The notes below the pieces were generated by a model. That model did no database searches. It saw only the letters and a program-made list of their open reading frames with translations, and was not told the origin of the DNA. A stretch of 52,874 nucleotides of DNA from a virus (Duplodnaviria > Caudoviricetes): positions 1 to 52,874 of IMG/VR virus record IMGVR_UViG_3300017650_000224; one strand, given 5' to 3'. The position numbers and the translations under genes are program-made. Shown piece by piece: positions 1,691 through 51,528 of this stretch; positions within the stretch are counted from its first letter, which is position 1, and each line of letters begins with the position of its first letter.

Positions 1691-1738
1691 CTGTATTTCT
1701 CCTCTTGGTAGCGCGGGCTTGGTGGGCCCGACTTGGTG

Positions 1739-1882
1739 TTAGGCGGCGGCTCCCCAGAACCATCGCCCGGAGCGTTTGGGCGCGGAGTATCGCGGCCAGC
1801 CGTTATCGCGCAGCCGCAGAACCTTACCGATGGCTGTGCGCGAAAGGCGCTTCCAGCGGCGGGATTCTCTGTGGGAGGTCAT
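1739..1882 (-). CDS. Small basic protein (47 aa, MTSHRESRRW...WGAAA)
   Basis: Translated by hand; ATGA-coupled to the upstream ORF; GGAGG SD. Confidence 0.5.
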   Translation of the reverse strand: MTSHRESRRWKRLSRTAIGKVLRLRDNGWPRYSAPKRSGRWFWGAAA

Positions 1883-2112
1883 GCTGCAACCCTCCTAAAC
1901 AGCAATGTCTGGAAGTTCGATTTGATGAGGTCGCGCCACACTACTTCACGTAGACGCTGACCAAAAACCCTCGCTGCTTCATAAGCCGATTCAGCCAGCA
2001 CAAGCGGGACAACCAACACAATCAGTGCCAACGGCAGCGCCGCCCACATCACTATCCCGCGCAGAAAGCGATTCTTGATGTTGTGAATGTTCAATTTTCG
2101 GACTTTGCTCAC
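1879..2112 (-). CDS. Hypothetical membrane protein
   Basis: 77 aa, one TM segment, coupled overlaps on both sides. Confidence 0.6.
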   Translation of the reverse strand: MSKVRKLNIHNIKNRFLRGIVMWAALPLALIVLVVPLVLAESAYEAARVFGQRLREVVWRDLIKSNFQTLLFRRVAA

Positions 2113-3392
2113 GCAGCCACCCTCCCCTCGCTCGCCGGTTCATTATCGTTCGCGGCCCGATAAGCCCCAGCGACCATTTCTGGTCGCAGGGTCGAGCGCC
2201 CTACCTCCCCGTATTTCTTCGAGTACGTAATGACCTTGGCCGACCGGCCAGACAGCCACCCGCCGCCACTCGCGTAGGCGTCCGGGGCGGCAAGCGTTTC
2301 GTGGCGCTCGATGTGCATCAGGGCTGTCTCGACCACCGCGTCGGAATGCAGATGCCCGCCATGGCCGTAATTGTACTGGCACCGCCCGAACATTTCGCGG
2401 AACTTCCCGGCGAATGTGCGGTCGAGGTCTTTCACGCCGCGCTTGTGCATGTGGTGGTAGTAAAGTCCGGTCTGCCCCCACTCGAACGCATAATAGAGGT
2501 CCGGGCTGCGATCGACGGTAATGCGCGGTTCGTTCTCGTAGAGCGTGGCCAGTAGCTCGCGGATCCATACCGACGAAGCCGGGTCGTGATTACCAGACGC
2601 CATAACGACGTGAACGCGCTCATGCTTGGCGAGCATCATATCGATGACGCGACGCAAGGCCCGGACCACGGCTCGCACGACTTTGTGCAAGCGGCTGTCG
2701 GCGTCGAGAACGTGCCTGTGCGCTGGCGTGACGGATTCCAGGCTGTCGTGGTGCATCAGGTCGCCGAGCTGCGCCAATAGGCCGGTGTGCGCGTCTGGGC
2801 TGGTGCGGATTGCCGCCGAGAACCAATCCAAGAAAAGCTGCTCGGCGATTTTCAGGTCGTAGTCCGAGCCGGTCTCCTCGCGGTGCGCCAGCATGCCGAA
2901 GTGGTTGTCGGTGACAGTGTACTGGTTAAGCAGGTCGTCGTTCCAGATCGTGTCGGCTGTGTGCGACGGCACGGGAGCGACGCGCGGCAGCGTTTCCTTT
3001 AGCGCCTCGACCGCTGCCTCAAGCGCTACGCGCTGGCTTTCCGCCCCTGCCCGCTCCATCACGTGCTGGGTAATAATGCGCCCTTCGGCGTCGATCAGGC
3101 TTGTCTTGCCTTTGATGGTCAGACCGTCAGTCGGCGCCCATTCTGGGCCAGCTTCTTTCCGCTGCTGGACGTACTGCCCGTTTGGTGTGTCGGTGATCTG
3201 GCGGATGCTGTAACCCGGCAACGTCTCCATGTTGCCCAACAACCCCCGCTCCGCCGCGCGGTTCAGGCGGTTCGTGAACGTCTGTCTCGGCAGGCCAAGC
3301 GTGCGGGCCGCTTCGGTTTTGTTCTCGCCGCAGGCGCGGTAGGCGATTGCGGCTTCGATGGCGTCTTCGTCGGAAAGGCGGGGGTTAGCCAT
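2109..3392 (-). CDS. Calcineurin-like metallophosphoesterase with N-terminal HTH
   Basis: TDNHFG, LGDLMH, SGNHD and GHLH motifs; Fis-like NKTEAARTLGLPRQT; ends AANDNEPASEGRVAA. Confidence 0.85.
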   Translation of the reverse strand: MANPRLSDEDAIEAAIAYRACGENKTEAARTLGLPRQTFTNRLNRAAERGLLGNMETLPGYSIRQITDTPNGQYVQQRKEAGPEWAPTDGLTIKGKTSLIDAEGRIITQHVMERAGAESQRVALEAAVEALKETLPRVAPVPSHTADTIWNDDLLNQYTVTDNHFGMLAHREETGSDYDLKIAEQLFLDWFSAAIRTSPDAHTGLLAQLGDLMHHDSLESVTPAHRHVLDADSRLHKVVRAVVRALRRVIDMMLAKHERVHVVMASGNHDPASSVWIRELLATLYENEPRITVDRSPDLYYAFEWGQTGLYYHHMHKRGVKDLDRTFAGKFREMFGRCQYNYGHGGHLHSDAVVETALMHIERHETLAAPDAYASGGGWLSGRSAKVITYSKKYGEVGRSTLRPEMVAGAYRAANDNEPASEGRVAA

Positions 3393-3672
3393 GGGCGGCA
3401 CCGGTGCGGATGGCGCGAGCGGCTGCCGAAAGGACAGGAATGTGATGTGGCCCAAATTCGCGGGCCTGCTCAATCTCCTCGTCTACAATATTAGCGCAAC
3501 GCTCACGCTCGGCAAGGATGGCGCGGGCCGCAATGGAAAGCATGGGCGCGTCATCAAACTCGCCCGACGCCACCCGAAGCAAATCAGCCGCGTCTTCGAT
3601 TCCGCTTATCGCAACAAACACGGCTCGCGCCTGCTGCAACACGTCCTGCGGGATATCCCCGGGCCGGCTCAT
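3385..3672 (-). CDS. Phage hypothetical protein
   Basis: 95 aa, coupled to neighbours, AILAERERCA motif common in phage ORFs. Confidence 0.65.
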   Translation of the reverse strand: MSRPGDIPQDVLQQARAVFVAISGIEDAADLLRVASGEFDDAPMLSIAARAILAERERCANIVDEEIEQAREFGPHHIPVLSAAARAIRTGAAHG

Positions 3673-3875
3673 GCCACCACCCCGCCCGCATTGCGGATTA
3701 GATAATCAACACCAGCCTGCCACATGTCGCGATAGCCATACTCGCCGTGCCCGTTACGCTTGCGCGCCTGCGCTGCGTGCTCAGCCATGGCGCTCGTGAC
3801 GCCTGCGGCTGGCTCGCGGATCATTTCCAGCACGCGCCGTACTGTCTGCGCGTCGGGCTTGCCCTCTGCCGTCAT
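3669..3875 (-). CDS. Phage hypothetical protein
   Basis: 68 aa with GAGGA SD. Confidence 0.6.
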   Translation of the reverse strand: MTAEGKPDAQTVRRVLEMIREPAAGVTSAMAEHAAQARKRNGHGEYGYRDMWQAGVDYLIRNAGGVVA

Positions 3876-3924
3876 CCTCTACTCCTCTTGGTACGTCCGC
3901 GCCTTTGGTGTCAGCGCGGCATGC

Positions 3925-3963
3925 AAAACAAAAAATCCCCCGCCGGCGGGAGCCAACGGGGGA
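3925..3963 (-). terminator. Intrinsic terminator
   Basis: TCCCCCGTTGGC-TCCC-GCCGGCGGGGGA followed by TTTTTTGTTTT on the minus strand. Confidence 0.8.
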
Positions 3964-4047
3964 CGTGCATTCAGATGTGCAAAATCATCCCACAGCTTGC
4001 GCTGCGACCGTGGCTGGCTATGGGAATCATTTGGAATTTATGGGAGG

Positions 4048-5819: not shown

Positions 5820-6401
5820 ATGAAAGCAATTGTGATTGCGGCACTGCTTGCCGCTTTGCCGACCGTTGCTGGGGCGCAGGAGGGCGACTTCTATGCCGGT
5901 GTGCTTCTGGGCGCGGGCCACGGCGAGCGGGAGGCCATCGGATCGGGCTGGACGGCCGAGACAAACGGCACGCTCATCGGCGGTATGGTTGGCTATACGG
6001 TAATGACCAGCCCGATCCTTTTGGGGATCGAGGCCGACTACCAACTGTCAAATATTGGCTCAGACAGGACATGGGGCCGCATCGACGGCCTCGACCACTT
6101 TGGCACCGTGCGCGCCCTAGCAGGCTTCCAGATCGAAGACTTCTCGATTTACGGCACGGCTGGCGTTGCCTTCGGAAGCGGCTATTTCCACCCGCGCGGC
6201 GCACCGCGAAAAGACGAGTTTATAGTCGGCACCGCGATCGGCATTGGGGCGAAATATCAAGTAACGGAAGCGCTCGGCCTCACGGCCGACGTCCTGCAAC
6301 TGAATTTCGGGGAGCCGAAATATTTCTCGATGCTGCTGGGGAACGCCGCTGTTCGCACAGAGGATCGCGTAGCAAGGGTCGGAGTGGTGTTTAGTTTTTA
6401 G
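5820..6401 (+). CDS. Outer-membrane beta-barrel protein, Omp25/RopB-like (moron)
   Basis: Signal peptide, FYAGVLLG, LGIEADYQ, IYGTAGVAFG, terminal Phe; opposite strand to the flanking phage operons. Confidence 0.85.
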   Translation: MKAIVIAALLAALPTVAGAQEGDFYAGVLLGAGHGEREAIGSGWTAETNGTLIGGMVGYTVMTSPILLGIEADYQLSNIGSDRTWGRIDGLDHFGTVRALAGFQIEDFSIYGTAGVAFGSGYFHPRGAPRKDEFIVGTAIGIGAKYQVTEALGLTADVLQLNFGEPKYFSMLLGNAAVRTEDRVARVGVVFSF

Positions 6402-37309: not shown

Positions 37310-37344
37310 ATTGCGAACGGGCAACGGAAGGCTGATTAATTCAG

Positions 37345-42226: not shown

Positions 42227-42850
42227 ATGTCGCTGCGTCTAGTGGTTTTCGCTTTAGCGTTCGTTTTGGCCGCGCTTATGTTGGTAGGCAGTGGTATTGC
42301 CGTCGGCGCGAATTCATCGAGCCTAACTCCACTGATCGTCGCGTTTTCTTTCGTGGAGCGTTTTCAAACATTAATAGCAGGAGCGCTTGCAACCGGGGCT
42401 GCCGTGGCAAGTGTTATAATGATTTCTCGACAAATCGAACTTCAGCGCAAGCATCACTCATCAAATAAGAAATTCACTCTTCGTCATGAGCAGCGCGCAA
42501 ATAATTACGCTTTTCAACTTGGAAAGAGCCTACTCGACTACGAATGGAGATTCGCGGTCACTAACGGTGTTTATAAGAATGACGGAAAGCCAATGATTCT
42601 CTCTAACCCCGCCAAACTACTTTCAGATTACGAACCTTACCTGCACGCCCCTATAAAGTACCAACTTGAGAAACTGCAACTCTCTATTGACCACTTCAAT
42701 AATGGAAAGGAAATTGAAGTATATGTGGCCGGTGAAGGCAGCCAAAAATTGTCACTGCAGTCTCAATTCGGCTTGATGAAGGCAGAAGCTAAACGCCTTA
42801 TGGTCGCTGCAAAATCGGAACTAGATCACTTGGAAGAAATGTGCGTCTGA
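42227..42850 (+). CDS. Membrane-anchored hypothetical protein (low-GC moron)
   Basis: Two N-terminal TM segments, AT-rich, opposite strand. Confidence 0.75.
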   Translation: MSLRLVVFALAFVLAALMLVGSGIAVGANSSSLTPLIVAFSFVERFQTLIAGALATGAAVASVIMISRQIELQRKHHSSNKKFTLRHEQRANNYAFQLGKSLLDYEWRFAVTNGVYKNDGKPMILSNPAKLLSDYEPYLHAPIKYQLEKLQLSIDHFNNGKEIEVYVAGEGSQKLSLQSQFGLMKAEAKRLMVAAKSELDHLEEMCV

Positions 42851-43764
42851 CCATCCACCCACGTCTCGCCATTCCTAAGCCTATACCGAACCGTCTCCGC
42901 CTCCTCGTCCGCTTCCAGCATCTCCCCCGGCACCATCCCCGGGAGAAATAAATGAGCACCACACGCCCGCCGCTGTTCATCCACCGACAATGGCTTTGAC
43001 CAGCGCGCACACGACCAATGAGCATCGCCGCCCATTTCCGGCGTGCTATGCAAACAACTCCGACAACTGACACGCGGGAACGCTCCTTCATGGCAAACCG
43101 CTTTGTGACGGCAGAACCGGCAGCCGAAGAACTCGGGGTTGTCACTTATCCGGCTGGGCGGCTCGTGCAGCCGCATCAGCCGCTCGACTTTGGCGATGGC
43201 TCGCAAGCAGTATTCGGCGTCGTACTCGATGCGCTCCGCGTACCGGCTGTCGTCGTTTTTGTTCACCACCAGGTAAAGCGCGCGGGTCAGCCCAAAAGCA
43301 TGCATCCCGATCTGGACTTGCCCAAAGTGCAAGGGCTTTGCTTTCTTGCACCCATGCTTCACGATCTGTTTGAAGCCCGCGTCGTTGCTGGACTTGAACT
43401 CGCACAGGTGTTCGGTCTTCGGGGCCTCGGGCAGGCCGATAGCCTTGCCGTCGCATTTACCGCGGATATGGCCACCGGCGAGCCGGATGCGGTCCTGCTG
43501 CCCCCAGACTTCGACGCCGATGCGCTCCAGATCGTCAACCAGCACCTCCTCCCACCGGTCACCGGTGCGGAAGATCGACAGCGTGCGGCCCGTGATGGCT
43601 TCGGGCTGGCTCGCCCACCGCAGATTGTACCAAAGGGCGCGGTCGCATTCGTTGCCGATTTCGCCGACCGAGATGCCGAGCGAGTCATAGTGCTCGTTCG
43701 CCGCTTCATACGCGCGGTAGATGGCCGAGACGGTGCTGGCTTGGGGGCGGGGAAGCGGGGCCAT
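42826..43764 (-). CDS. Cas4/RecB-like PD-(D/E)XK exonuclease
   Basis: ECDRALW, GKCDG, EFKS, QVQIGM, CRFC...C. Confidence 0.85.
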   Translation of the reverse strand: MAPLPRPQASTVSAIYRAYEAANEHYDSLGISVGEIGNECDRALWYNLRWASQPEAITGRTLSIFRTGDRWEEVLVDDLERIGVEVWGQQDRIRLAGGHIRGKCDGKAIGLPEAPKTEHLCEFKSSNDAGFKQIVKHGCKKAKPLHFGQVQIGMHAFGLTRALYLVVNKNDDSRYAERIEYDAEYCLRAIAKVERLMRLHEPPSRISDNPEFFGCRFCRHKAVCHEGAFPRVSCRSCLHSTPEMGGDAHWSCARWSKPLSVDEQRRACGAHLFLPGMVPGEMLEADEEAETVRYRLRNGETWVDGQTHISSK

Positions 43765-43931
43765 TATTGGCGAGCCACCAACGACCACAGAATACCCTTG
43801 AGGTCTTCGACGTTCTGGGCCTCGAGAATTTCGCGGTTCAAGTCTTGGTCCTCGACGATGCGCTTGGCTTCCAGAAGCCCCTTGCCCGCCTCCCGCAGTT
43901 CGCGGATGCGTTCCTGCTTGGTTTTCATCAT
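43764..43931 (-). CDS. Small protein with a bL12-CTD-like motif
   Basis: RIRELRE..KGLLEAKRIVE; GGAGGAG SD. Confidence 0.55.
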   Translation of the reverse strand: MMKTKQERIRELREAGKGLLEAKRIVEDQDLNREILEAQNVEDLKGILWSLVARQ

Positions 43932-44203
43932 ACTCCTCCCGGATCGCACATAAGCGCATAGCTCTCGCCGCTCCACTGGTGCTCTTTGAGAAATCCCGCG
44001 ATGCCTTCCTTGTGCTCCGTTGCTATGGCGACCAATTCGGCAAGCCATGTGATCGGAATTTCAGCATCGTGCACGATGATGCACGAATGGCCGACGCGAA
44101 GTGTTGCGGTTCCATGCTCGTAGTTCGGGCTTTCGATCTCAAAGAACGAACCGCCACGAGCGCCATCACCGCCGAACCTATTTTCACACTTGTGCTTAGC
44201 CAT
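43928..44203 (-). CDS. Hypothetical protein
   Basis: 91 aa, coupled overlaps. Confidence 0.6.
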   Translation of the reverse strand: MAKHKCENRFGGDGARGGSFFEIESPNYEHGTATLRVGHSCIIVHDAEIPITWLAELVAIATEHKEGIAGFLKEHQWSGESYALMCDPGGV

Positions 44204-44589
44204 CACTCCGCCTCCCCAACAGGCTCGCCCCTCCCGCACCCCGCTTCACTCGCCATACCCGCCGCAGCGATGCTGGCACCCAGTGCCTTGGCGAAATAGT
44301 CGCCCATAGGCCCCTGCCCCTTGAGCGGCTGCACATGCGGGTTGGTCGCCGCCTCATAGGCAGCACGGCTTTCAAACACCGACGCCCACTTCGGAAAGAA
44401 CTCACGTTCCAGCGTGGTCACAGCATCGGCCAAATCGCCGCGCCGTATCTGCGCGATGGCGGTGCGGACGGCGGTCTGGGCGTCATCGGGGAGCCCAATT
44501 TTGCGAGCCCGTACCTCTGCAAGCAACTCGCCGTCGCTCAATTCATCCAGCACGTCGTCGGTGTCGATTTCTACGCGTACGTATCCCAT
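44203..44589 (-). CDS. Hypothetical protein
   Basis: 128 aa, LDELSDGELLAEVRAR. Confidence 0.65.
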   Translation of the reverse strand: MGYVRVEIDTDDVLDELSDGELLAEVRARKIGLPDDAQTAVRTAIAQIRRGDLADAVTTLEREFFPKWASVFESRAAYEAATNPHVQPLKGQGPMGDYFAKALGASIAAAGMASEAGCGRGEPVGEAE

Positions 44590-44599
44590 CTCTCGCCCC

Positions 44600-45658
44600 C
44601 TACACCCTCATCGGCATCAGGACGCCGCACCAGTTATCGTTCGCGCCGACAATCCTCGCCGGGCTGCTGCTATCGCTGATTTCAAACGTCACCTTGCCGC
44701 CCTCGACGGAGCGCAGCATTTCGGTGAGATAGCTGGCGTTGTAGCCAATATCGAAAGGCTCACCGGTGTAGTCGGCAGCCAGTTCGTCACTCGCCTGCCC
44801 GCCCTCACCGTTGACAGTAAACGTCACGCCGCCCGGAGCGACTTCGAGCTTCACGGCCTTGCCTCCCCGCTCGCTGGCGAACACACCGACCCGCTCGACG
44901 GCAGCCGACATAAGGGCACGGTCCAGTGTCACCGGCCGGTCGTTGTTCTTGGGGATGACACGCTCGTAATCGGGGAACGTACCTTCGACCAGCTTGGATA
45001 CAATCACCGTATCGCCAGCGGTGAACCGGATGCGGCCCGGCCCGATATCGACCTCAATTTCGCCCGACGGGATCATGCCGACCGTCTTGCGCGGAATGAT
45101 GATGCCCTCGGGCAGGTCAAGGTCAGGCCCATACACTGCCGCCAGCCGGTGTCCGTCGGTCGCCACCGCGCGCAGCCGGCCGTGGACAGAGTGCAGGTAC
45201 ACGCCGTTGAGATAGAAGCGCGTCTCTTCGGTCGACATGGCAAAAGCGACCGGCGCGAGCAGCGCGGCCAAGTCTATGGCTAGGCCCACCGGGTACGCCG
45301 GCTGGGTCATGGTCGGGAAGTCTTCAACCGGCAGCGTGGCAACCTTGAACCGGCTGCGGCCATGGGAAACGGTCAGAATGCCACCGTCCAGCGCCAGCGA
45401 GATTTCGGCGCCATTGGGCATCCGCTTGGCGATATCGAGCAGCGTGCGCGCTGGTGCGGTTGTGGTGTCGAGTGCGCCGTCGGCTGGAACCGAAGTGGTG
45501 ATTTCAACGTCTGTATCTGTGGCGCGGACCGTCAGTTTGCTGGCGTCAGCGCTCAAAAGAACGTTCGCCAAAATCGGAACGGTGTTGCGTGTTTCCACCG
45601 CTTTGGTCGCCTGCGTGAGCGCAGCGACTAGGTGGGCCTTCTCTACTCTGAGTGCCAT
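44600..45658 (-). CDS. dnaN: DNA polymerase III beta sliding clamp
   Basis: PILANVL, ATD, TRFYLNG, VATDGHRL, GTFPDYERVIP, ends LMPMRV. Confidence 0.93.
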   Translation of the reverse strand: MALRVEKAHLVAALTQATKAVETRNTVPILANVLLSADASKLTVRATDTDVEITTSVPADGALDTTTAPARTLLDIAKRMPNGAEISLALDGGILTVSHGRSRFKVATLPVEDFPTMTQPAYPVGLAIDLAALLAPVAFAMSTEETRFYLNGVYLHSVHGRLRAVATDGHRLAAVYGPDLDLPEGIIIPRKTVGMIPSGEIEVDIGPGRIRFTAGDTVIVSKLVEGTFPDYERVIPKNNDRPVTLDRALMSAAVERVGVFASERGGKAVKLEVAPGGVTFTVNGEGGQASDELAADYTGEPFDIGYNASYLTEMLRSVEGGKVTFEISDSSSPARIVGANDNWCGVLMPMRV

Positions 45659-45733
45659 CTGATTTTCTCCTCTGGTGGTAGGCCGGGGCGATTGGTGGCC
45701 GCCCCGGCTGGTGCTAGGCCGTGTGCGTACTGC

Positions 45734-46291
45734 TTACCCCCAAGGGCGCTTTTTGGTCCCACCTGCCTGCGCTTGCGCGGCAGGCCGGGCGTTGTCGTTG
45801 GCCGCTGCTCGCTGGTTATCGTTCGCCGGGCGTGCGGGCTGGTTGGCGTCGATTGCGGGGACGGGCACGTTGCCTTGGTCCGGGAAGTAGTAGGCCTTGA
45901 TCTCGGCACGGGCGGGGTACTGGCCGTCCTTCGACGGCTTGCCCAAGCCGATTTTCACCGTGAAGCCCTTGAACAGAAGTTCATCGGTGTCCTCGACGCC
46001 GTCGAGTTCAAGGGCGCGGCAGAGGCTCGCAAATTGGCGCTGTCCAATCTCTTGGGCAGTGGGATTCGCGTTTTCCAGGTTGTAATTGTTGAAGATCAGC
46101 CGACCCTCATATTCCTCGGGCTCAAGCACTTTGTTGACGGTCTTGAGGATCGTCCCGTTGCCTGCCTTCGTGGGGGCGACGTCCGCTTCGGTGACTTCGA
46201 GGCGATAGATGCCGTTGGGCAGTTCCTCGTAGTCGGGCCGCTGCTCGGTGTCATGTTGAGTCGCGTCGAAACGCTGACCAAGTCTGGCCAT
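45734..46291 (-). CDS. DUF669 single-stranded DNA-binding protein
   Basis: LPNGIY, GRLIFNNYNL, acidic/flexible tail ending KKRPW; near the Sak4-like gene. Confidence 0.8.
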   Translation of the reverse strand: MARLGQRFDATQHDTEQRPDYEELPNGIYRLEVTEADVAPTKAGNGTILKTVNKVLEPEEYEGRLIFNNYNLENANPTAQEIGQRQFASLCRALELDGVEDTDELLFKGFTVKIGLGKPSKDGQYPARAEIKAYYFPDQGNVPVPAIDANQPARPANDNQRAAANDNARPAAQAQAGGTKKRPWG

Positions 46292-46340
46292 GCAAAACTC
46301 CTATGTTGTGGTGGTGTGGTGGTGGTGATGTGAGAGGCGG

Positions 46341-47168
46341 TCACGCCGCCTCATCATCGGCTTTGTCGTTGTCGTTCGCTGCGCCGAAGGCCAGTGAGGG
46401 CTGGAACTCCCCGGTGGTTGTCGCGCCCTTGGTCATGTTTTCGGCCTCCCATAGAGGCTGGAGGTTCGAGAGCGACCATGCACGCTTGAAGTCCAAGTCA
46501 TCTGGACAGTTATAATTGTGGGCCGACAAAGGTACTTTGTGGTCGATATGCCAGCCACCGCGCCCGTAGTTCTCCCAAGACATCCCAGGCTGAAATAGCT
46601 TTTCCAGATGGGCCATTAGTTCATCGACGCTGTATCCAAGAATATCGAATGTCCGCCGTGATGCTTTTGCGCCTTTCGTAATCCCGCGGTGCACGCCAAC
46701 AGAAATGGAGTTCTCAAGTCGACCCTTTGGAGTAGAGCGCCTACGCTCATCCCGCCTTCTGCCAGACTCCCTAACGCGCTCTGGGTCTTCCTCCATTGCG
46801 CGCCGGTACTTTGCTTTACCCCTCTCCCGCTCGGATTCGGCATTCGCTTCTCGCCATGCCTTGTTGTATGCGCGGTGAAAGTCAGGGTCTTCGGCATATC
46901 GCGCCCGCGATCTTTCGCGGTCCCTCTCCCTTTCTTTCTCAATGTTTTTCAGGCGATACAGGCGCCTCGTCTCTCGAACCTCATCCGGCTTTTCTTCGCG
47001 ACGTTTCTTGGCTCTCATTCGAAAGCAAGCATGACACCCGCCCTGATGTGTGTTGCGCTTGTCGATGTGTCCGTTCTTGCAGGGCCTTCCTGTGAAATAG
47101 TGCTTGGACCCCTGCGCCTTGGCTTCCGCGCGTGATCGAGGAAGCCGCTGGCCGTTTTCGGCTGCCAC
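46341..47168 (-). CDS. HNH endonuclease with N-terminal Zn ribbon
   Basis: LEKLFQPGMSWENYG..WHIDHKVP...NLQPLW..EN; ends AANDNDKADDEAA. Confidence 0.85.
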   Translation of the reverse strand: MAAENGQRLPRSRAEAKAQGSKHYFTGRPCKNGHIDKRNTHQGGCHACFRMRAKKRREEKPDEVRETRRLYRLKNIEKERERDRERSRARYAEDPDFHRAYNKAWREANAESERERGKAKYRRAMEEDPERVRESGRRRDERRRSTPKGRLENSISVGVHRGITKGAKASRRTFDILGYSVDELMAHLEKLFQPGMSWENYGRGGWHIDHKVPLSAHNYNCPDDLDFKRAWSLSNLQPLWEAENMTKGATTTGEFQPSLAFGAANDNDKADDEAA

Positions 47169-47170
47169 GA

Positions 47171-47953
47171 CTATGCCGCTACTCTCTCGCCGCCCGGCAA
47201 GAACTTCGCCAGTTCCGCAAAGCCCTGCCCTTTTTTAAATGGAATGCTATCGGGCATGGAGTGGCGATTCTTCGCTACAAAGCCGGGTTTCTCGTTGAGG
47301 TGAACAAGCCGCTCATTGCCACCCTCGGCGCGGGAGACCTTCTTGTTGAAGCCGACCTCTTTCTCTTTCAAGGAAATGCGGTAGTTGACGAACGCGACGA
47401 TGTCCGCCTGCTCCCGCACGAGAGCATTCGCCCGCCTGTGCAACTTGATCGTGTAGCGGGAATAGGGATCCGAGGTCGGGCTATCGAACCTAATAATCTC
47501 GGGGTGCGCGAGCTGGACCACATAGATTCCAGCCCGCGAAAGCGCAGAAACGGCCTGCAGGTACTCGGTCCATTCTGCATCAGCCTCGATGTACCCGCGA
47601 CCATACCCAACGGCCTCAATCGACTCCACGCCGAGGCGAGCGCATGTTGCCTTCCAGATTAAGGGCTCCAACCCGTCCAAGCTGTCGACAACGACTGTGC
47701 GGAAGTCATGCTCCTCGGTCAGCAGCTCGCCGAAGATGTCGAGCAGCCCGTGGAAGGATTCCACAACGCCCGGCGTGGTCAGCTCTACGTCGCTGGGCGG
47801 CGTCTCGCCTTCCGTCGGCAGGTAGATCACCGGCCCGGGGAACTCGGCGGCCAGGCTGGTTTTGCCCACGCCGTCGACGCCGTAAATCACGGTGCGCGGC
47901 GGGTTGTTGGATCTGGTGGTGGTGAGGCTAGCCAAAGACAAAGCCATTCGCAT
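47171..47953 (-). CDS. Sak4-like AAA ATPase (ssDNA annealing)
   Basis: IYGVDGVGKT, VVDSLD, GYGRGY, AKNR. Confidence 0.85.
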   Translation of the reverse strand: MRMALSLASLTTTRSNNPPRTVIYGVDGVGKTSLAAEFPGPVIYLPTEGETPPSDVELTTPGVVESFHGLLDIFGELLTEEHDFRTVVVDSLDGLEPLIWKATCARLGVESIEAVGYGRGYIEADAEWTEYLQAVSALSRAGIYVVQLAHPEIIRFDSPTSDPYSRYTIKLHRRANALVREQADIVAFVNYRISLKEKEVGFNKKVSRAEGGNERLVHLNEKPGFVAKNRHSMPDSIPFKKGQGFAELAKFLPGGERVAA

Positions 47954-48023
47954 TTCTCCTCTTGGTATCCCGCCCTGCTGGGTAGGCAGAGCGGGCAGTT
48001 GTGGTGGCTAGGCGGGCGGCAGG

Positions 48024-48431
48024 CTAGTTGAGCGACTGGCGCTGTCCGGCCTCAAGGATTGGCAGGTTCGCCTCGGTCGGAACGTAAATAACGTTGCGGC
48101 CGCCCTGACTGGTGTTTTCCAGCATTTCGATATAGCGCCAGCGCAGGTAGCCTTCCGCGCCGCCGAGGCTATCGGCAATGATGGCGTTGGCCTCGGCCAC
48201 GCCACGCGAGCGGGCGACTTCAGCCTGACTGGTGAGATCGGCAGCATCCAGTGCAGCTTGCGCCTCCAGAACCCGAATGCGTCGGTTGCTTTCAACCTCG
48301 GCAAGCTGAGCGCGGCCCGCCGACTCTTTCACGTAGATGTCGTATTGCGGATAGTAGGCAGCGCACCCAACGACGCCGCCGATTACGAGAATGACGCTTG
48401 CAACCGCGCCAACAACTCCTGCTGCACTCAT
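48024..48431 (-). CDS. Membrane protein, SPFH/band-7-like C-terminal segment
   Basis: N-terminal TM, GVAEANAIIADSL, IYVPTEANLPILEA. Confidence 0.7.
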   Translation of the reverse strand: MSAAGVVGAVASVILVIGGVVGCAAYYPQYDIYVKESAGRAQLAEVESNRRIRVLEAQAALDAADLTSQAEVARSRGVAEANAIIADSLGGAEGYLRWRYIEMLENTSQGGRNVIYVPTEANLPILEAGQRQSLN

Positions 48432-48663
48432 AGGTTTTCTCCTCATTTTCACGCATACGGCGGCCAATTGCAGGCCTGCCAGAGCAACAGACACAGGGCG
48501 GCGAGCAGCATGATTTCCATCATCTCAACGCCCCGATTGCTTGGAGCACCCATGCTGCGGGTAGCAGCAGGGTGAGGGTCACGACGGCCGCGAAAAGCGC
48601 GGTGCGCAGCGCCCGCAGCGGCGGGTGAAGCCGCTGGTCATACGGATGACAAAAGTTCATGGC

Positions 48664-49689
48664 TCAGGCGGCGGTGAGGGCCGACAGAGGAACGCCGTGG
48701 CTGGGGTTACGCAGGCCAGGAATGTTGACGTTGGCGTGCGTGCCATGAGGGTGAATGCCGGTCACCTTCACGCGCAGAGTCGCGAACTGCCCGGGGCGGA
48801 TGGTGGAATCGACCAGCAACAATTCGTCGTCTCGCCACCATTCGAAGCCTACATGGCCGGAGCAGCTGCGAAGTGACATGACACCCTTAGCGTTGCGGGT
48901 TGCGACGACGAACTCCCTGTCGTCTTCCTTCACCCGCACTCGATCACCCACTTTGAACTTCGGCTCTGCAGGCGTTGCTGTTGCGGGACCAAGCGCAACG
49001 GGGTCTTCATCCTCGGACGGCCATTCGGCGACGAGGTCGTATCCCGCCGTCATTTCGTTTCGATTGGGGCTGCCCACCGGCCAAAAACTGCCGTCCTCGT
49101 GCCACGCCTCAACGAAGTCGTGGTTATTGCCGTCAGAGCGCCAAAAGAAAGCCCCGCCACCACGTCCACGACGCACAGGCCCGACCTTCCGCCCGTCGCG
49201 CGTGCGGTAATAACGCCCGACTTGGATTTGCAGCGCGTCTGCCCCTTGCGCTTGCGCGGCAGTTGGCAGGGGTTCAAAGTTTTCCAGTAGTCCACGGAGC
49301 GACCAGTTGTGCTCCCGGTTGCCTGCCTCGTCGGTCAAGTGGAACATGCGCTCGCCGCCGCCGCCGACAATTTCGTACTCACCGTCACGCCGGTAGTAAT
49401 GGCTATCCTTGCCCTTCCACCGAACCCGATCCCCAACCTTGAACTTGACCTCGGTGCTCTGCTGGCCACCCTGCTCCTGCTCGGCACGTGCAGGGGTGTC
49501 GTCGTTGGCGGCGTCAAGAACAGTCAGGCTGCGCTTGGCCCACCAGACCTTAACACCGCTCAACCACGTACTGTCGCCGATGCATCCGGCGTACCGAACC
49601 TGCCGCTCGCCCTTTCTCTTCCCGACAATCGTTCCGACGTCACCGTCTTCGTCGCGCACACGTGCGCCAATACCGTATTTACCGGCCAT
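48664..49689 (-). CDS. Multi-SH3/KOW-like repeat protein
   Basis: Repeated KFKVGDRVR-type units and GRYYRTRDGRKV. Confidence 0.7.
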   Translation of the reverse strand: MAGKYGIGARVRDEDGDVGTIVGKRKGERQVRYAGCIGDSTWLSGVKVWWAKRSLTVLDAANDDTPARAEQEQGGQQSTEVKFKVGDRVRWKGKDSHYYRRDGEYEIVGGGGERMFHLTDEAGNREHNWSLRGLLENFEPLPTAAQAQGADALQIQVGRYYRTRDGRKVGPVRRGRGGGAFFWRSDGNNHDFVEAWHEDGSFWPVGSPNRNEMTAGYDLVAEWPSEDEDPVALGPATATPAEPKFKVGDRVRVKEDDREFVVATRNAKGVMSLRSCSGHVGFEWWRDDELLLVDSTIRPGQFATLRVKVTGIHPHGTHANVNIPGLRNPSHGVPLSALTAA

Positions 49690-49751
49690 CTGATTTTCTC
49701 CTCATGGTAAGTCGGCGGTTGGTGGCCGCCTATTTGTTCGCCGCCGAGCGG

Positions 49752-50021
49752 CTAGTTCGCGACCGGGAACGGCACGACCACTCCGGTCACTTCGGCTTCT
49801 TCCGCGTCGGCGTCATCGTGCCGCTCGACCAATGAAAGCTGGGACTCGGACCACTCGCGCTCTTGCGGCGAGCCTGTGCCGTCGATGTATTCGACCCAGT
49901 AGGTGGCTTCCTTGCGCATATGGACGGCCCAGCCCGTGATAAAGCCAACAATGGCCGAACCCAAAATCCGAACGCAGTCGCCGATGTAGAAGCCGTCGTC
50001 TTGGTCCGCCGGGCCGGTCAT
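49752..50021 (-). CDS. Small SH3-like hypothetical protein
   Basis: FYIGDCVRI...YWVEY...WSESQL. Confidence 0.65.
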   Translation of the reverse strand: MTGPADQDDGFYIGDCVRILGSAIVGFITGWAVHMRKEATYWVEYIDGTGSPQEREWSESQLSLVERHDDADAEEAEVTGVVVPFPVAN

Positions 50022-50239
50022 GCCGCCACCTCAACTGGATAGACGTCGTGGGACTTGAACCACTGACGGACCTTCCGCCCGTCAGGCAGCACCTGCTCGA
50101 CCCAGTAATGGTCGCCGGTGGGCCCGTCCTTGCGCTCGACGATCGTGCCGCGCAGGGTCACCTCGACGGTTTCGCCGAGGCCGTAATCGTATTGCTTTGC
50201 GGCGGGCTGGGTCGCCACTGCCTGCTGCATCCCGGTCAT
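50018..50239 (-). CDS. Small SH3-like hypothetical protein
   Basis: YGLGETVEV...YWVE...WF; ends EVAA. Confidence 0.65.
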   Translation of the reverse strand: MTGMQQAVATQPAAKQYDYGLGETVEVTLRGTIVERKDGPTGDHYWVEQVLPDGRKVRQWFKSHDVYPVEVAA

Positions 50240-50382
50240 GCCGCTGCCTGCTGGATGGAAATGCGCGGCAGCTTGATGTCGATGTAGCGCAGCGTCGTGT
50301 TGCAGCCGGTTTCGATCAACCGACGCACTGTGGTGGTTGGGCGCTTACCGCTGGGGCGTCTCGCTGTATCCGTTGAATTCAT
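50236..50382 (-). CDS. First early ORF (48 aa, MNSTDTARR...QQAAA)
   Basis: Translated by hand; GAGGAG SD; ATGA overlap. Confidence 0.55.
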   Translation of the reverse strand: MNSTDTARRPSGKRPTTTVRRLIETGCNTTLRYIDIKLPRISIQQAAA

Positions 50383-50573
50383 GGGCCTACTCCTCTAAAT
50401 GGTAGGCGCCCGGTTGGTAGCCGGGACGCCGGAAAGCTTTGGTTGTGGTTCGCCGTTTGGCCTACTTCTCGCCGCTGTGAGTACGCATGCGCCCTGTGGG
50501 GCTAAGCGGGTGGTACCGAGCTACGGCTCCCCGCAGGGCGTATTTTTGGTTGGCGTGACTGCTGACAACGAGC

Positions 50574-50602
50574 AATATGCGCGAATCGCATAAAATTGTC
50601 AA
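50574..50602 (-). promoter_or_regulatory. Leftward early promoter overlapped by an operator
   Basis: TTGACA-N17-CATATT; TATGCG-N5-CGCATA palindrome across the spacer. Confidence 0.75.
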
Positions 50603-50659
50603 TACTTTTATGCGATCTTCGCGAGTGACAATCGCATTTCAGCTATGCGATAAGCACTT
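50576..50659. promoter_or_regulatory. CI operator array (ATGCG-N5-CGCAT and half-sites)
   Basis: One perfect and about three partial copies upstream of cI. Confidence 0.7.
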
Positions 50660-51406
50660 ATGGAACGCGAAATCATAGCGAAATGGCTGGAAACCGGCAT
50701 CAAGGTTGCCGACATCACCCAGAGCGATCTGGCTGAGGCAATCGGTATTTCGCAGGACCAGGTCAGCAAGATCATCAAAAGGAAGCGGTCAATGACTGCC
50801 GTGGAGATGATTCGTGCCGCCATATTCCTGAGTCGTGAACTGCCCGCCCGAGAGCTGGCAGGTGAAATCCGGCCCCTTCATCTGGAATACGAGGCAACGG
50901 AGCCATTAGCGCTGCCGGCCGCCATCACGCCCGAGATGCGCTTTAACATCCCGGATAACGGCATCCCGCAGATCGACGGCAGCATTGGCCTGGGCTCACG
51001 CGATGACGTGGAAACCCTAACGATTGACCTTGGAAACGGAGAAAATACTGCAGCCGTGGCAGTATTAGGCACGTGGCACATACCCTCGTCCGTCCTTCAG
51101 CGGCGCGTCCGGACTTCCGTGAAGAATCTCCACATGGTCGAGTGCGAGGGTAACTCGATGCACCCGCTGATTAAGGATGGGGACATGGTCATGATTGACC
51201 AGTCACGCCGCAATCCTAACATGCCGGGGGTTTTCGCGCTTTACGAAGATGGCGGGCAGACCATCAAACAGGTCGAGGTCGTGCGCGGCACTGACCCCCT
51301 CAAGCTCCGCCTGATCCCAGCCAACAAAGATTACTCCACGTACGAAGTGAACGCCGACGAGGTTCATATTATCGGCCGCTATGTCGCGCGATTCACAGTG
51401 GACTAG
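50660..51406 (+). CDS. cI: CI-like repressor (XRE HTH plus S24 peptidase)
   Basis: TQSDLAEAIGISQDQVSKI; GNSMHP..DGD, IKQV. Confidence 0.92.
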   Translation: MEREIIAKWLETGIKVADITQSDLAEAIGISQDQVSKIIKRKRSMTAVEMIRAAIFLSRELPARELAGEIRPLHLEYEATEPLALPAAITPEMRFNIPDNGIPQIDGSIGLGSRDDVETLTIDLGNGENTAAVAVLGTWHIPSSVLQRRVRTSVKNLHMVECEGNSMHPLIKDGDMVMIDQSRRNPNMPGVFALYEDGGQTIKQVEVVRGTDPLKLRLIPANKDYSTYEVNADEVHIIGRYVARFTVD

Positions 51407-51425
51407 CCGTCTGGACGCAAGCAAC

Positions 51426-51476
51426 TTGCGATAATCGCATTTAATAGTTGACTTTCGCATAAGCCTGCCGCATTCT
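51426..51476 (+). promoter_or_regulatory. Rightward early promoter with operators
   Basis: TTGCG-N5-CGCAT at 51426; TTGACT-N17-CATTCT at 51448-51476. Confidence 0.7.
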
Positions 51477-51528
51477 CTCCTCATGCAACGGGATTACCAC
51501 CCCCGTAGCGCTACCAGAGGAGAAAATC

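What the first reader, a model, noticed from the sequence alone, without database searches (positions are those of the whole stretch)
1697..51522. Dispersed 5'-UTR element: variable-stem hairpin with a fixed C(C/U)ACCAA loop, then ACCA fused to the Shine-Dalgarno
Seen on the coding strand: hairpins with unrelated stems but the same 7-nt loop. The loop is CCACCAA at 1714-1730, 37934-37960, 38792-38812, 42181-42199, 45682-45708 and 49714-49730, and CTACCAA at 39058-39074 and 50405-50430. Variants occur at 47969-47995 (CTACCCA), 3897-3919 and, on the + strand, 51488-51506. Each is followed within about 10 nt by (T/C)ACCA-N0-4-(G)AGGAG and a start codon; 52290-52333 has only the ACCA-rich form. 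The element flips with gene orientation and precedes early and accessory genes, not virion genes. Stem variation around a fixed loop indicates an RNA structure. The layout (one site in a loop, one at the SD) parallels CsrA/RsmA targets, but with ACCA instead of GGA. Inference: a regulon controlled by an RNA-binding protein, antisense RNA or RNase; the phage CspA is one candidate.
Basis: partly seen in the sequence, partly recalled or inferred. Interest (0 to 1): 0.88.

Follow-up and report, generated by a model that had tools for sequence, protein, structure and literature searches.

The report
Phage ACCA-loop hairpin before gene starts
A temperate phage of a soil alphaproteobacterium, and its relatives including the classic rhizobiophage 16-3, place the same small RNA hairpin (any stem, an ACCA-bearing loop) plus a second ACCA box just upstream of the ribosome-binding site of their early genes; the motif appears undescribed and its reader is unknown.

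Summary
The window is a whole 52,874-bp prophage, found at 100% identity over one gene in a Pelagibacterium MAG contig. It carries 10 minus-strand sites and 1 plus-strand site with this layout: a GC-rich hairpin of unrelated stem, a loop of C(C/U)ACCAA or a close variant, 0-6 nt, (U/C)ACCA, GAGGAG (AGGAGA at one site), then AUG. All lie before early or accessory genes and none before virion genes.

A covariance model built only from relatives finds 8 window sites at 20 bits or more, all on the coding strand. It finds none at that score in 1.36 Mb of alphaproteobacterial chromosome. The cassette is nearly absent from the host genome outside the prophage. It recurs in phage 16-3, four other named rhizobiophages and many IMG/VR proviruses, giving 62 distinct copies with freely varying stems. 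Rfam has no match, and my literature searches found no description.

How it works is not shown. My best guess (about 0.4) is a translational operator whose ACCA boxes are read by one unknown trans-acting factor. Rivals are a factor-free insulated ribosome-binding cassette, an RNA-processing mark and a nut/Rho-type signal. The phage CspA is real but absent from the five compared relatives, so it is a poor general candidate.

The parts
50380..50430 (-). Element 1. Hairpin 50425-50409 (5 perfect bp, extendable to 50430-50404 with a bulge), loop CUACCAA, UACCA at 50404, GAGGAG, AUG 50382-50380. It heads a 48-aa ORF, the first gene of the rightward early operon.
   Evidence: 20.4 bits
49687..49735 (-). 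Element 2. Hairpin 49730-49714, loop CCACCAA, UACCA at 49709, GAGGAG, AUG 49689. It heads a 341-aa protein of unknown function.
   Evidence: 23.9 bits
47945..47995 (-). Element 3 (variant). A 10-bp hairpin 47995-47969, loop CUACCCA, UACCAA at 47967, GAGGAG, AUG 47947. It heads the Sak4-like/AAA_24 gene.
   Evidence: R2 gives only 13.8 bits
46289..46352 (-). Degenerate relative. Hairpin 46352-46334 with loop CGUGA, which holds the upstream stop codon. It is followed by a 29-nt ACC-rich tract, AGGAG and AUG 46291 (DUF669 gene). There is no ACCA loop.
45656..45708 (-). Element 4. A 10-bp hairpin 45708-45682, loop CCACCAA, UACCACCA at 45680, GAGGAG, AUG 45658. It heads the DNA pol III beta-clamp gene.
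   Evidence: 30.6 bits
42157..42199 (-). Element 5. Hairpin 42199-42181, loop CCACCAA, UACCAA at 42176, GAGGAG, AUG 42159. It heads the 160-aa sigma-70-family (regions 2 and 4) gene.
   Evidence: 21.8 bits
39029..39079 (-). Element 6. A 10-bp hairpin 39079-39053, loop CUACCAA, UACCACA at 39052, GAGGAG, AUG 39031. It is preceded by UAACCACCACCAC and heads a 70-aa ORF.
   Evidence: 22.4 bits
38770..38812 (-). Element 7. Hairpin 38812-38792 with the 9-nt loop ACCACCAAC, then CCACCAA fused to GAGGAG, AUG 38772. It heads the Gp157/Gam-like gene.
   Evidence: 20.1 bits
37912..37960 (-). Element 8. A 10-bp hairpin 37960-37934, loop CCACCAA, UACCA at 37931 fused to GGAGAA, AUG 37914. It heads the MT-A70 methyltransferase gene.
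   Evidence: 28.2 bits
3873..3919 (-). Element 9 (variant). A 7-bp hairpin 3919-3897, loop GACACCAAA, UACCAA at 3893, GAGGAG, AUG 3875 (68-aa ORF). It sits directly after a terminator-like hairpin plus U-run.
   Evidence: R1 gives 21.0 bits (in the training set)
1688..1730 (-). Element 10. Hairpin 1730-1714, loop CCACCAA, UACCAA at 1710, GAGGAG, AUG 1690. It heads a 49-aa hydrophobic ORF, followed by NT5C-like and dNMP-kinase-like genes.
   Evidence: 20.1 bits
51474..51531 (+). Plus-strand element. Hairpin 51488-51506, loop AUUACCACC, UACCA at 51512, GAGGAG 51517-51522, AUG 51529. Here an upstream UCUCUCCUC (51474-51482) is predicted to pair with the SD around the hairpin.
   Evidence: SD unpaired probability 0.00
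52290..52344 (+). ACCA-rich leader without a hairpin: ...CACCAGCCACCACCUACCAC GAGGAG, AUG 52342.
50574..50602 (-). Context only. A sigma-70-like promoter match (TTGACA-17-CATATT, 10 of 12) lies between the CI-like repressor gene (50660-51406, +) and element 1. It would place element 1 in a 5' leader of about 185 nt.
   Evidence: consensus match only; the number of promoter-like sites equals the shuffle expectation

Best explanation
The element is a phage-specific, cis-acting RNA cassette. It heads every independently translated cistron of the early and accessory transcription units.

Its parts, from 5' to 3':
- often an A/C-rich run straight after the upstream stop codon;
- a GC-rich hairpin of arbitrary sequence (4-11 bp) whose loop displays YACCA(A/C), most often C-N-A-C-C-A-A;
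- a G-poor, A/C-rich single-stranded spacer of about 10 nt that carries a second (U/C)ACCA box;
- a GAGGAG Shine-Dalgarno;
- AUG, with the base of the stem 12-32 nt (median 23) upstream of it.

I think it most likely acts as a translational operator. One sequence-specific trans-acting factor (protein or RNA, phage- or host-encoded, identity unknown) would read the ACCA boxes presented in the loop and beside the SD. That would jointly set ribosome loading, and with it mRNA survival, on the mRNAs made from the repressor-controlled early promoters.

Shown: the structure, its conservation, its strand, its position and its restriction to phage DNA. Inferred: that a trans factor exists, and the direction of its effect (activation or repression).
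For: 1. RNA-type conservation. In 38 aligned hairpins from six genomes the five loop bases ACCAA are invariant. All nine stem pairs change on both sides, and the inner four pairs show four to six pair types each.

2. Tests that do not select for stems. 35 of 283 CNACCAA words are flanked by stems, against 0.88% background. A model built without the window finds 8 window sites, all on the coding strand. It finds nothing of 20 bits or more in 1.36 Mb of control DNA.

3. Fixed relation to translation starts. In 62 distinct copies the SD is GAGGAG in 58, the start codon is ATG in 57, and ACCA lies in the spacer in 55. The spacer is 81% A+C and 6% G.

4. Restricted to phage DNA. In the 3.1-Mb host MAG, 8 of 9 loop+box+GGAG matches and 12 of 16 ACCA-GAGGAG-ATG matches lie in the prophage stretch of one contig. 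A 3.5-Mb Devosia genome has 3 of the latter.

5. Restricted to one class of genes. Seven of the eight gaps of at least 46 nt in the rightward early operon carry it, and the eighth carries a degenerate form. Late-gene gaps instead carry UUCG-type hairpins and U-rich tails.

6. Signs of a common reader rather than mere composition:
- The loop keeps its sequence across phages whose shared proteins are only 25-69% identical.
- A close relative (L217, exonuclease 83% identical) has shifted most of its loops together to (U)CACCAC.
- Two hairpins stand in tandem before some genes (16-3 near 21,550-21,590; G005 near 12,300-12,350, minus strand).

7. Known operators have the same geometry, a hairpin just 5' of the SD (recalled knowledge, see Closest known systems).
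Against: - No reader was found. Of 50 window proteins scanned against Pfam, the only RNA-binding-type domain is the CSD protein. That protein is absent from the five compared relatives.
- The ten proteins shared by all six genomes are replication, recombination or sigma proteins, or unknowns.
- No complementary loop RNA was found on the coding strand.
- Relatives show a graded series: CNACCAA, UCACCAC, CUCACCA, CACCA and UACC(C) loops, and in some (L230, L235, L218) only A/C-rich tracts next to ordinary hairpins. This fits a compositional or structural constraint as well as a specific reader.
- Predicted SD accessibility is only modestly higher than for late genes (0.61 against 0.46 mean unpaired probability).
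- There are no expression, end-mapping or binding data of any kind.
Confidence: 0.4

Rival explanations
1. Factor-free 'insulated ribosome-binding site'. The hairpin locks the end of the upstream gene into a self-contained helix. The A/C-only loop and spacer cannot pair with each other and offer an unstructured standby or enhancer site (possibly for ribosomal protein S1) next to a strong SD. Each non-overlapping early cistron would then be translated efficiently and independently, without any dedicated regulator.
For: - The element occupies essentially every sizeable gap of the early operon, while overlapping genes lack it.
- The single-stranded parts are 81% A+C.
- Relatives show looser A/C-rich versions with other loops.
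- No conserved RNA-binding protein was found.
- The SD is on average more open than at late genes.
- That CA-rich leaders enhance translation is recalled knowledge, not tested here.
Against: - Composition alone does not explain five invariant loop bases in 38 of 38 hairpins.
- Among 35 permutations of the heptamer, only CCACCAA is stem-flanked often: 20 of 120, against 12 of 1721 for the others.
- The host does not use the cassette for its own genes.
- The accessibility gain is modest, and at two sites the SD is predicted mostly paired (0.18 and 0.00).
Confidence: 0.25
2. RNA-processing or stability punctuation. An endonuclease cuts the polycistronic early RNA in the single-stranded A/C tracts. 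The hairpin then caps either the 3' end of the upstream segment or the 5' end of the downstream one. This would give each cistron its own half-life, and the loop would serve as the nuclease's or a protector's recognition mark.
For: - The position is intercistronic, with a stop codon within 15 nt upstream in 35 of 62 copies.
- The stems are stable and GC-rich.
- The early-only distribution would suit timed decay.
- Analogy with the T7 RNase III sites and the Rhodobacter puf intercistronic hairpins is recalled knowledge.
Against: - The stems (4-11 bp) are too short for RNase III (recalled requirement).
- ACCA is not avoided in coding sequence, and is if anything enriched (z +2.5 and +3.1), so a simple ACCA-specific cutter is unlikely.
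- ACCA follows the stem directly in only 5 of 62 copies, so an RNase P minihelix mimic does not fit.
- No nuclease gene is shared by all six genomes other than DNA-type nucleases.
Confidence: 0.13
3. Transcription-elongation signal. The hairpin is a boxB-like site for an N-like antiterminator, or the C-rich, G-poor flanks act as Rho loading (rut) sites. Either would couple early-operon read-through to translation or to a phage antiterminator.
For: - The layout, C-rich tract then hairpin then C-rich tract directly after a stop codon, resembles the lambda cro-nutR-tR1 region (recalled).
- Element 9 sits immediately after a terminator-like hairpin plus U-run.
- One G002 copy (near 62,350) is itself followed by a U-run.
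- Arginine-rich micro-ORFs lie in the early regions of 16-3 (C-terminus of p069, first gene after PR) and of G002, G004 and G005.
Against: - Ten or more sites per genome, each locked 12-32 nt from an AUG, is not what a processive antitermination signal needs.
- The micro-ORF is not found in the window or in G003.
- Its conservation coincides with an AGA-rich run and a hairpin, so it may not be a protein at all.
- Only 1 of 62 copies has a U-rich tail.
- The single-stranded tracts are much shorter than a typical rut site (recalled).
Confidence: 0.1
4. DNA-level feature. It could be a binding site for a DNA-binding protein, a promoter for the phage sigma factor, or a conserved linker that favours module exchange by the phage recombination genes.
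For: - The element travels with a shared replication, recombination and sigma module.
- The reverse complement forms the same hairpin.
- G.U asymmetry does not decide the strand: sense stem longer in 19 copies, antisense in 15, equal in 28.
Against: - A DNA-binding protein would not tolerate unrelated stem sequences.
- The distance from loop to GAGGAG varies from 14 to 19 nt in the window (read), too loose for a -35/-10 pair.
- Orientation always follows the gene, and the motif includes the SD and AUG.
Confidence: 0.05
5. One reading: the phage cold-shock protein (32084-32293, minus) is the reader of the ACCA boxes.
For: - A bona fide CSD protein is encoded (73.3 bits).
- Some cold-shock domains prefer CA(U/C)C-type single strands (recalled).
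Against: - There is no homologue in G002-G005 or 16-3, which all carry the element.
- Its gene lies outside the element-bearing operon stretch and has a long ordinary leader.
- Host Csp paralogues remain possible but untested.
Confidence: 0.05

Closest known systems
Start-Associated Sequences (SAS) and Extended SAS of Cluster K mycobacteriophages (PMC3203893; passages read)
   Same: - Both are short repeats dispersed through the non-structural half of the genome.
- Both lie in one orientation, a few bases upstream of start codons that are mostly ATG, and contain the SD core.
- Both are absent or nearly absent from the host genome.
- About half of the SAS carry an upstream inverted repeat.
- The function of SAS is unknown; a role in translation initiation through a host or phage factor was proposed.
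   Different: - SAS is a fixed 13-mer (GGGATAGGAGCCC). Here the fixed parts are YACCA boxes plus GAGGAG.
- ESAS arms are conserved in sequence and their differences do not keep pairing, so the authors favoured a DNA-binding site. Here the arms are unrelated in sequence and pairing is kept by changes on both sides, while the loop is what is conserved.
- The host phylum differs (Actinomycetota against Alphaproteobacteria), and there is no sequence similarity.
CsrA/RsmA binding sites (recalled knowledge)
   Same: Two copies of a short single-stranded motif, one displayed in a hairpin loop and one at or next to the SD, with variable spacing. This layout suits a dimeric RNA-binding protein that blocks or aids ribosome entry.
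   Different: - The motif is ACCA, not GGA.
- No CsrA-family domain appears among the 50 window proteins scanned.
- The sites are confined to phage genes and are not a host regulon.
Phage translational operators: T4 RegA targets, T4 gene 43 operator, MS2/PP7 coat-protein hairpins; also T4 RegB cleavage of GGAG in early mRNAs (recalled knowledge)
   Same: - A hairpin with a sequence-specific loop and an adjoining single strand at the ribosome-binding site.
- RegA and RegB act on many early mRNAs at once and help switch off early expression.
- Early genes share one SD flavour.
   Different: - There is no sequence likeness.
- No RegA, RegB or coat-protein homologue was detected in the PHROGs scan of the 10 proteins just downstream of elements or in the Pfam scans of 50 proteins.
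- Those operators usually include the SD or AUG in the bound segment, whereas here the hairpin stands 2-22 nt upstream of the SD.
Lambda nutR / tR1 region: boxA, boxB hairpin, rutA and rutB (recalled knowledge)
   Same: An intercistronic site directly after a stop codon, with a short hairpin of conserved loop flanked by C-rich, G-poor single strands.
   Different: - The boxB loop is a GNRA-like pentaloop, and there are two nut sites per genome, not locked to an SD.
- Here there are 10-11 sites per genome, each 12-32 nt from an AUG.
- No N homologue was found.

Membership tests
Any Rfam 15 family | Match to a curated covariance model at its gathering score | tested here: not met
   Searching the whole window at gathering score returned only a tRNA. 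An E-value search of 37880-39120 (three elements) gave two chance-level hits at E 4-6.
CsrA/RsmA target | GGA (A(N)GGA) motif in the hairpin loop and a second GGA at the SD | tested here: not met
   The loops are C(C/U)ACCAA and variants, and none contains GGA. GGA occurs only as part of the SD GAGGAG.
CsrA/RsmA target | A CsrA-family protein available in the phage or host | tested here: inconclusive
   No CsrA domain appears in the 50 window proteins scanned against Pfam. The host proteome was not scanned.
SAS/ESAS of Cluster K mycobacteriophages | 13-bp consensus GGGATAGGAGCCC 3-7 bp upstream of the start codon | tested here: not met
   The window consensus is (U/C)ACCA-N0-4-GAGGAG-N5-8-AUG. 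The SAS definition was read in PMC3203893.
SAS/ESAS of Cluster K mycobacteriophages | Start-associated, single orientation, non-structural genes only, rare in the host genome | tested here: met
SAS/ESAS of Cluster K mycobacteriophages | Upstream inverted repeat whose arms are conserved in sequence and do not co-vary | tested here: not met
   The arms are unrelated in sequence, all 9 pairs change on both sides, and 82.9% of cells are paired.
Lambdoid nut site (boxA + boxB) | boxB hairpin with a GNRA-like pentaloop; one site per early operon; an N-type arginine-rich protein | tested here: not met
   The loops are 7-nt ACCA loops, with 10 minus-strand sites and 1 plus-strand site in the window. 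Arginine-rich micro-ORFs occur in 16-3, G002, G004 and G005 but not in the window or G003, and their coding status is doubtful.
Intrinsic (Rho-independent) terminator | GC-rich hairpin followed directly by a U-run | tested here: not met
   1 of 62 copies has at least 4 U in the first 8 nt after the stem, and the spacer is 13% U.
RNase P minihelix / tRNA acceptor-end mimic | RCCA beginning immediately 3' of the helix | tested here: not met
   The offset from stem end to ACCA is 0 in 5 of 62 copies, 1-10 in 50 and absent in 7. ARAGORN finds only two true tRNAs, elsewhere in the window.
Promoter of the phage sigma factor | Two conserved boxes at a fixed spacing (about +/-1 nt) | tested here: not met
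   The distance from loop to GAGGAG is 14-19 nt in the window, and from loop to the ACCA box 7-12 nt (read).

The most novel reading that the evidence does not exclude
The ACCA boxes are a recognition code for a so far unknown RNA-binding factor that gives 16-3-like phages a private post-transcriptional regulon. This would be a CsrA-like two-site logic with a different letter code.

One bold version follows from the loop consensus. C-N-A-C-C-A copies the single-stranded NACCA 3' end of tRNAs, and CAACCA is the end of initiator tRNA as I recall it. Under this reading the phage mRNAs display tRNA-end mimics beside their ribosome-binding sites, to recruit or to titrate a host protein that normally handles tRNA acceptor ends.
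Probability: 0.15. Interest if true: 0.85.

Novelty: new variant of a known kind. Interest (0 to 1): 0.6.

Why it matters
- If a dedicated reader exists, this is a new RNA-protein (or RNA-RNA) recognition code that controls a whole block of phage early genes. It occurs in cultivable systems (phage 16-3 and relatives on Sinorhizobium and Rhizobium) where it can be tested at once.
- Even if no factor is involved, it is a compact, portable and host-orthogonal translation-initiation cassette for Hyphomicrobiales.
- It would also be the first start-associated phage repeat I know of where the structural (RNA) reading has covariation support.
- It gives annotators a simple mark for early-gene starts and for prophages of this group.
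- It offers a second, independent case beside the unexplained mycobacteriophage SAS/ESAS.

Tried and rejected
- Near-identity search of 37000-52000 against the phage collection: no match.
- Rfam: nothing beyond a tRNA.
- Literature. 'CCACCAA' + hairpin + phage returned 388 papers, and none of the 15 listed was relevant. Rhizobiophage / 16-3 / stem-loop / intergenic returned 59 papers, with none of the 15 listed relevant by title or abstract. 'phage 16-3' + Sinorhizobium meliloti + hairpin returned 0 papers. Subscription-journal papers on 16-3 are outside the library, and supplements were closed, so 'not described' is limited to these searches.
- A complementary (UUGGU) loop RNA on the coding strand: none convincing.
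- A local complement for a pseudoknot: TTGGT, TGGTG and GTGGT are not enriched in the first 90 nt of the downstream genes.
- 16S pairing. A Devosia 16S has TTGGTGG once, at nt 220. I recall this as a paired helix. One hit in 1.5 kb is within chance.
- G.U asymmetry to fix the functional strand: undecided, 19 against 15.
- An ACCA-cutting nuclease: ACCA is not depleted in coding sequence.
- RNase P mimic, terminator and sigma promoter: see the membership tests.
- ESM Atlas look-up of the conserved 341-aa protein: best score 0.84, a lead only, so dropped.
- Sequencing runs: no RNA holder listed for 37301-47300.
- The covariation count rests on hairpins chosen for having stems, so I do not use it alone. 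Five of the 43 candidates were dropped before alignment A1 for lack of a credible SD plus start codon: G002_15332, G002_73508, G002_24897, G003_43983 and G004_43505.
- Model R1 includes window sequences, so its window hits are circular. R2 was built to avoid this.

Full report
WHAT THE WINDOW IS. The 52,874-base window is the whole record. It is about 60% G+C, with most genes on the minus strand.

- The large terminase is 64-65% identical to those of Klebsiella and Pseudomonas siphophages.
- The early region is syntenic with Rhizobium phage 16-3: Sak4, DUF669, beta clamp, Cas4-type exonuclease, sigma factor, SF2 helicase, methylase and PrimPol-helicase.
- The beta-clamp gene is found at 100% identity in a 301-kb contig of a MAG labelled Pelagibacterium sp. 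(L082). The phage is therefore a prophage of a Devosiaceae-type host, as far as MAG binning can be trusted.
- A CI-like repressor (HTH plus S24 peptidase, 50660-51406, + strand) faces a leftward-reading operon (50382 down to 37345 in window coordinates). A promoter-like TTGACA-17-CATATT lies at 50602-50574.
- Virion and lysis genes occupy about 28 kb down to 4.4 kb. A block of small ORFs and nucleotide-metabolism genes occupies 3.9 kb down to 0.3 kb.

Reading the cited places and two mechanical scans confirm the element. It consists of a perfect hairpin of 5-10 bp with unrelated stem sequence and a 7-nt loop CCACCAA or CUACCAA. After 0-6 nt comes (U/C)ACCA, then GAGGAG (AGGAGA once), and after 5-8 nt an AUG.

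- Seven sites have the exact loop.
- One has the 9-nt loop ACCACCAAC (38812-38792), one CUACCCA (47995-47969) and one GACACCAAA (3919-3897).
- One lies on the + strand before a + strand gene, with loop AUUACCACC (51488-51506).
- 52290-52333 has only the ACCA-rich leader.
- A further gap (46352-46289) has an ordinary hairpin followed by a long ACC-rich tract.
- In the loop scan all 7 hits are on the minus strand and none on the plus strand.
- The word is over-represented: 16 against 6.3 expected, with 0 of 100 shuffles reaching 16.
- The element is the top dispersed repeat family of the genome (D2 and D3).

WHERE IT SITS. In the rightward early operon I count eight gaps of 46 nt or more between consecutive genes (gene list, sequences). 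Seven carry the element and the eighth carries the degenerate form. Genes that overlap or abut their upstream neighbour have none.

The downstream genes are:
- a 48-aa first gene;
- a 341-aa unknown;
- Sak4;
- the beta clamp;
- the sigma factor;
- a 70-aa unknown;
- a Gp157/Gam-like protein;
- the MT-A70 methylase;
- two small ORFs at 3875 and 1690.

The upstream regions of 43 other minus-strand starts, mostly virion, lysis and replication genes, show no such motif. Where late genes have gaps, these hold UUCG-type hairpins, U-rich tails and other SD forms.

IT IS A FAMILY. A pattern scan of IMG/VR returned 80 loci (the cap), most of them chance. About a dozen loci of 0.52-0.62 G+C had true hairpins.

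- Phage 16-3 has the same element before p046, p075, p086 (sigma), p089 and p096 (methylase), and in tandem before p036.
- In four complete proviruses and 16-3, a loop+box+GGAG pattern matched 24 times, against 1 match for the reversed pattern.
- Thirty further relatives fetched through the exonuclease gene added more copies.
- After removing duplicates I hold 62 distinct copies from 14 sources.
- Loops: CCACCAA 26, CUACCAA 12, CAACCAA 5, CGACCAA 3, UCACCAC 3, and 13 others that all contain ACCA.
- Stems are 4-11 bp.
- The spacer is 2-22 nt, with a peak at 9-11. It is 39% A, 42% C, 13% U and 6% G, and ACCA lies in it in 55 of 62 copies.
- The SD is GAGGAG in 58 of 62 and the start codon is ATG in 57 of 62.
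- The stem end lies 12-32 nt (median 23) from the start codon.
- A stop codon lies within 15 nt upstream in 35 of 62. The run UAACCACCAC often precedes the stem.
- Four more named rhizobiophages (AP-16-3, NV1.1.1, RHph_TM3_3_14B, RHph_X2_25) each give 6-10 matches to a looser pattern, against 0-3 for the reversed control. RR1-A gives 1. Stems were not checked there.

IS IT MORE THAN CHANCE, AND IS IT STRUCTURE? The 38-sequence alignment has ACCAA invariant. All nine stem columns change on both sides. 82.9% of cells are paired against 43.3% in shuffles and 30-38% when the partner is slid. Because I had picked those sequences for having stems, I ran three tests that do not depend on that choice.

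1. Of all 283 CNACCAA words in six genomes, 35 (12.4%) are directly flanked by at least 5 bp. The comparison values are 0.88% of all positions, 3 of 249 for the reversed word and 12 of 1721 for the other permutations of the heptamer.
2. CCACCAA is the commonest 7-nt loop among all hairpins of at least 5 bp in these phages. In 1.36 Mb of alphaproteobacterial chromosome (the dnaN neighbourhoods fetched) such hairpins number 2, against 35 in 0.405 Mb of phage DNA.
3. A covariance model built from the 29 non-window hairpins finds 8 window sites at 20.1-30.6 bits, all on the minus strand, with the next hit at 13.8 bits. Its best hit in the 1.36-Mb control is 17.9 bits.

PHAGE-SPECIFIC. In the 3.1-Mb host MAG, 8 of 9 matches to CYACCAA-N4-16-ACCA-N0-8-GGAG lie in the prophage stretch of contig C66. 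So do 12 of 16 matches to ACCA-N0-6-GAGGAG-N4-9-ATG. A 3.5-Mb Devosia genome has 3 of the latter. The host therefore does not use this cassette for its own genes.

WHAT READS IT? This I could not settle.

- Pfam scans of 50 window proteins found one RNA-binding-type domain, the cold-shock protein at 32084-32293. It has no counterpart in the five compared genomes, and its own leader is ordinary.
- The ten proteins shared by all six genomes are replication, recombination or sigma proteins, plus a 454-aa HTH protein and a 341-aa unknown. An Atlas look-up of the 341-aa protein gave only a weak lead.
- No coding-strand hairpin displays the complementary loop.
- There is no enrichment of complementary words in the downstream coding starts.
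- There is no convincing 16S partner.
- ACCA is not avoided in coding sequence.

Three things speak for a common reader rather than mere composition:
- the invariance of ACCAA across phages whose shared proteins are 25-69% identical;
- the specificity for one permutation of the heptamer;
- the closest relative by exonuclease identity (L217, 83%) has shifted its loops together to (U)CACCAC while keeping ACCA(U/C)U before GAGGAG.

Against a common reader, other relatives show CUCACCA, CACCA and UACC(C) loops, or only A/C-rich tracts beside ordinary hairpins. That graded series would also fit a structural or compositional constraint.

MECHANISM. The hairpin never includes the SD. It ends a median of 23 nt before the AUG, which is where known translational operators and standby sites sit (recalled knowledge). 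Predicted SD accessibility is somewhat higher than at late genes (0.61 against 0.46). At the + strand site the SD is instead predicted to pair with an upstream UCUCUCCUC around the hairpin (unpaired probability 0.00).

My ranking is:
- translational operator read by one unknown factor, 0.40;
- factor-free insulated ribosome-binding cassette, 0.25;
- processing or stability mark, 0.13;
- nut/Rho-type elongation signal, 0.10;
- DNA-level feature, 0.05;
- the phage CspA specifically, 0.05.

Three readings fail direct tests (and the sequences):
- Terminator: 1 of 62 copies has a U-rich tail.
- RNase P minihelix: ACCA abuts the stem in 5 of 62 copies.
- Sigma promoter: box spacing varies over 14-19 nt.

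COMPARISON WITH WHAT IS KNOWN. The nearest described thing is the SAS/ESAS system of Cluster K mycobacteriophages (PMC3203893, passages read). It too is dispersed, start-associated, of single orientation, confined to non-structural genes, absent from the host and of unknown function. There, however, the inverted-repeat arms are conserved in sequence and do not co-vary, so a DNA site was favoured. Here the arms are free and co-vary, and the loop is fixed.

The two-box layout works like a CsrA site, but the element is not a member of that family (ACCA, not GGA). T4 RegA and RegB, the T4 gene 43 operator and the lambda nutR/tR1 region are functional analogies only, recalled and not tested. No RNA sequencing run holds the region, so expression could not be examined.

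VERDICT. This is a real, well-delimited and apparently undescribed RNA motif of 16-3-like temperate phages of Hyphomicrobiales. The evidence for structure and for a role at translation starts is good. There is no evidence yet on its reader or on the sign of its effect.

Noticed in passing
window 51474-51522 (+): Before the first gene downstream of the repressor on the + strand, UCUCUCCUC (51474-51482) is predicted to pair with the SD (51517-51522). The ACCA-loop hairpin is nested inside this helix, and the SD unpaired probability is 0.00. By my own reading a weak TTGACT-17-CATTCT lies just upstream (about 51448-51476). The promoter scan did not flag it.
   Followed up: partly
window 32084-32293 (-): The phage encodes a cold-shock (CSD) protein of 69 aa (73.3 bits), with a leader of about 190 nt that lacks the element. 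No counterpart is found in five related genomes.
   Followed up: yes
window 42153-42850 (+): A low-G+C plus-strand ORF (42227-42850, 207 aa, no Pfam match) is inserted between the exonuclease and sigma genes. A promoter-like site (42153-42180) would make its mRNA begin with the antisense hairpin of element 5. That loop, UUGGUGG, is complementary to all CCACCAA loops.
   Followed up: no
L195:4500-4700 (+), L207:105-305 (-), L211:11432-11644 (-); 16-3 record 36556-36723: A conserved 29-35-codon arginine-rich micro-ORF (ending ...RGPP) lies in the early regions of three proviruses, with a weak likeness to the C-terminus of 16-3 p069, the first gene after PR. Its arginines are AGA-rich and its end forms a GC hairpin, so it may be an RNA or DNA signal rather than a protein. 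It is not found in the window or in G003.
   Followed up: partly
window 3925-3960 (-): A terminator-like hairpin (CCCGCCGGCGGGGG) plus U-run sits immediately upstream of element 9. The accessory block 3875-295 therefore needs read-through or a promoter that I did not find.
   Followed up: no
window 22502-22576: A 12-nt tandem repeat (five listed copies in family D1, overlapping in register) lies inside the 87-aa gene that follows the major capsid gene.
   Followed up: no
window 29792-29943 (-): Two phage tRNA genes, tRNA-Met (CAU) and tRNA-Tyr (GUA), lie between the replication and packaging modules.
   Followed up: no
window 5820-6401 (+): A plus-strand outer-membrane beta-barrel (OMP_b-brl / OmpA-like) gene lies near the lysis genes. 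It is a likely lysogenic-conversion gene.
   Followed up: no
L081 (16-3) about 26355 (-), 28999, 37245 and 37810 (+): In phage 16-3 a second repeat, TGACAAATTTGTA(A/G)AA..., recurs about 45 nt upstream of several ACCAC-GAGGAG starts. It may be a promoter or operator family. I did not look for a counterpart in the window.
   Followed up: no
G002 (L198) near 62,350 (+): One hairpin with the CCACCAA loop (8-bp stem) is followed by UUUUGUUG rather than an SD, so it looks like a terminator that carries the same loop.
   Followed up: no
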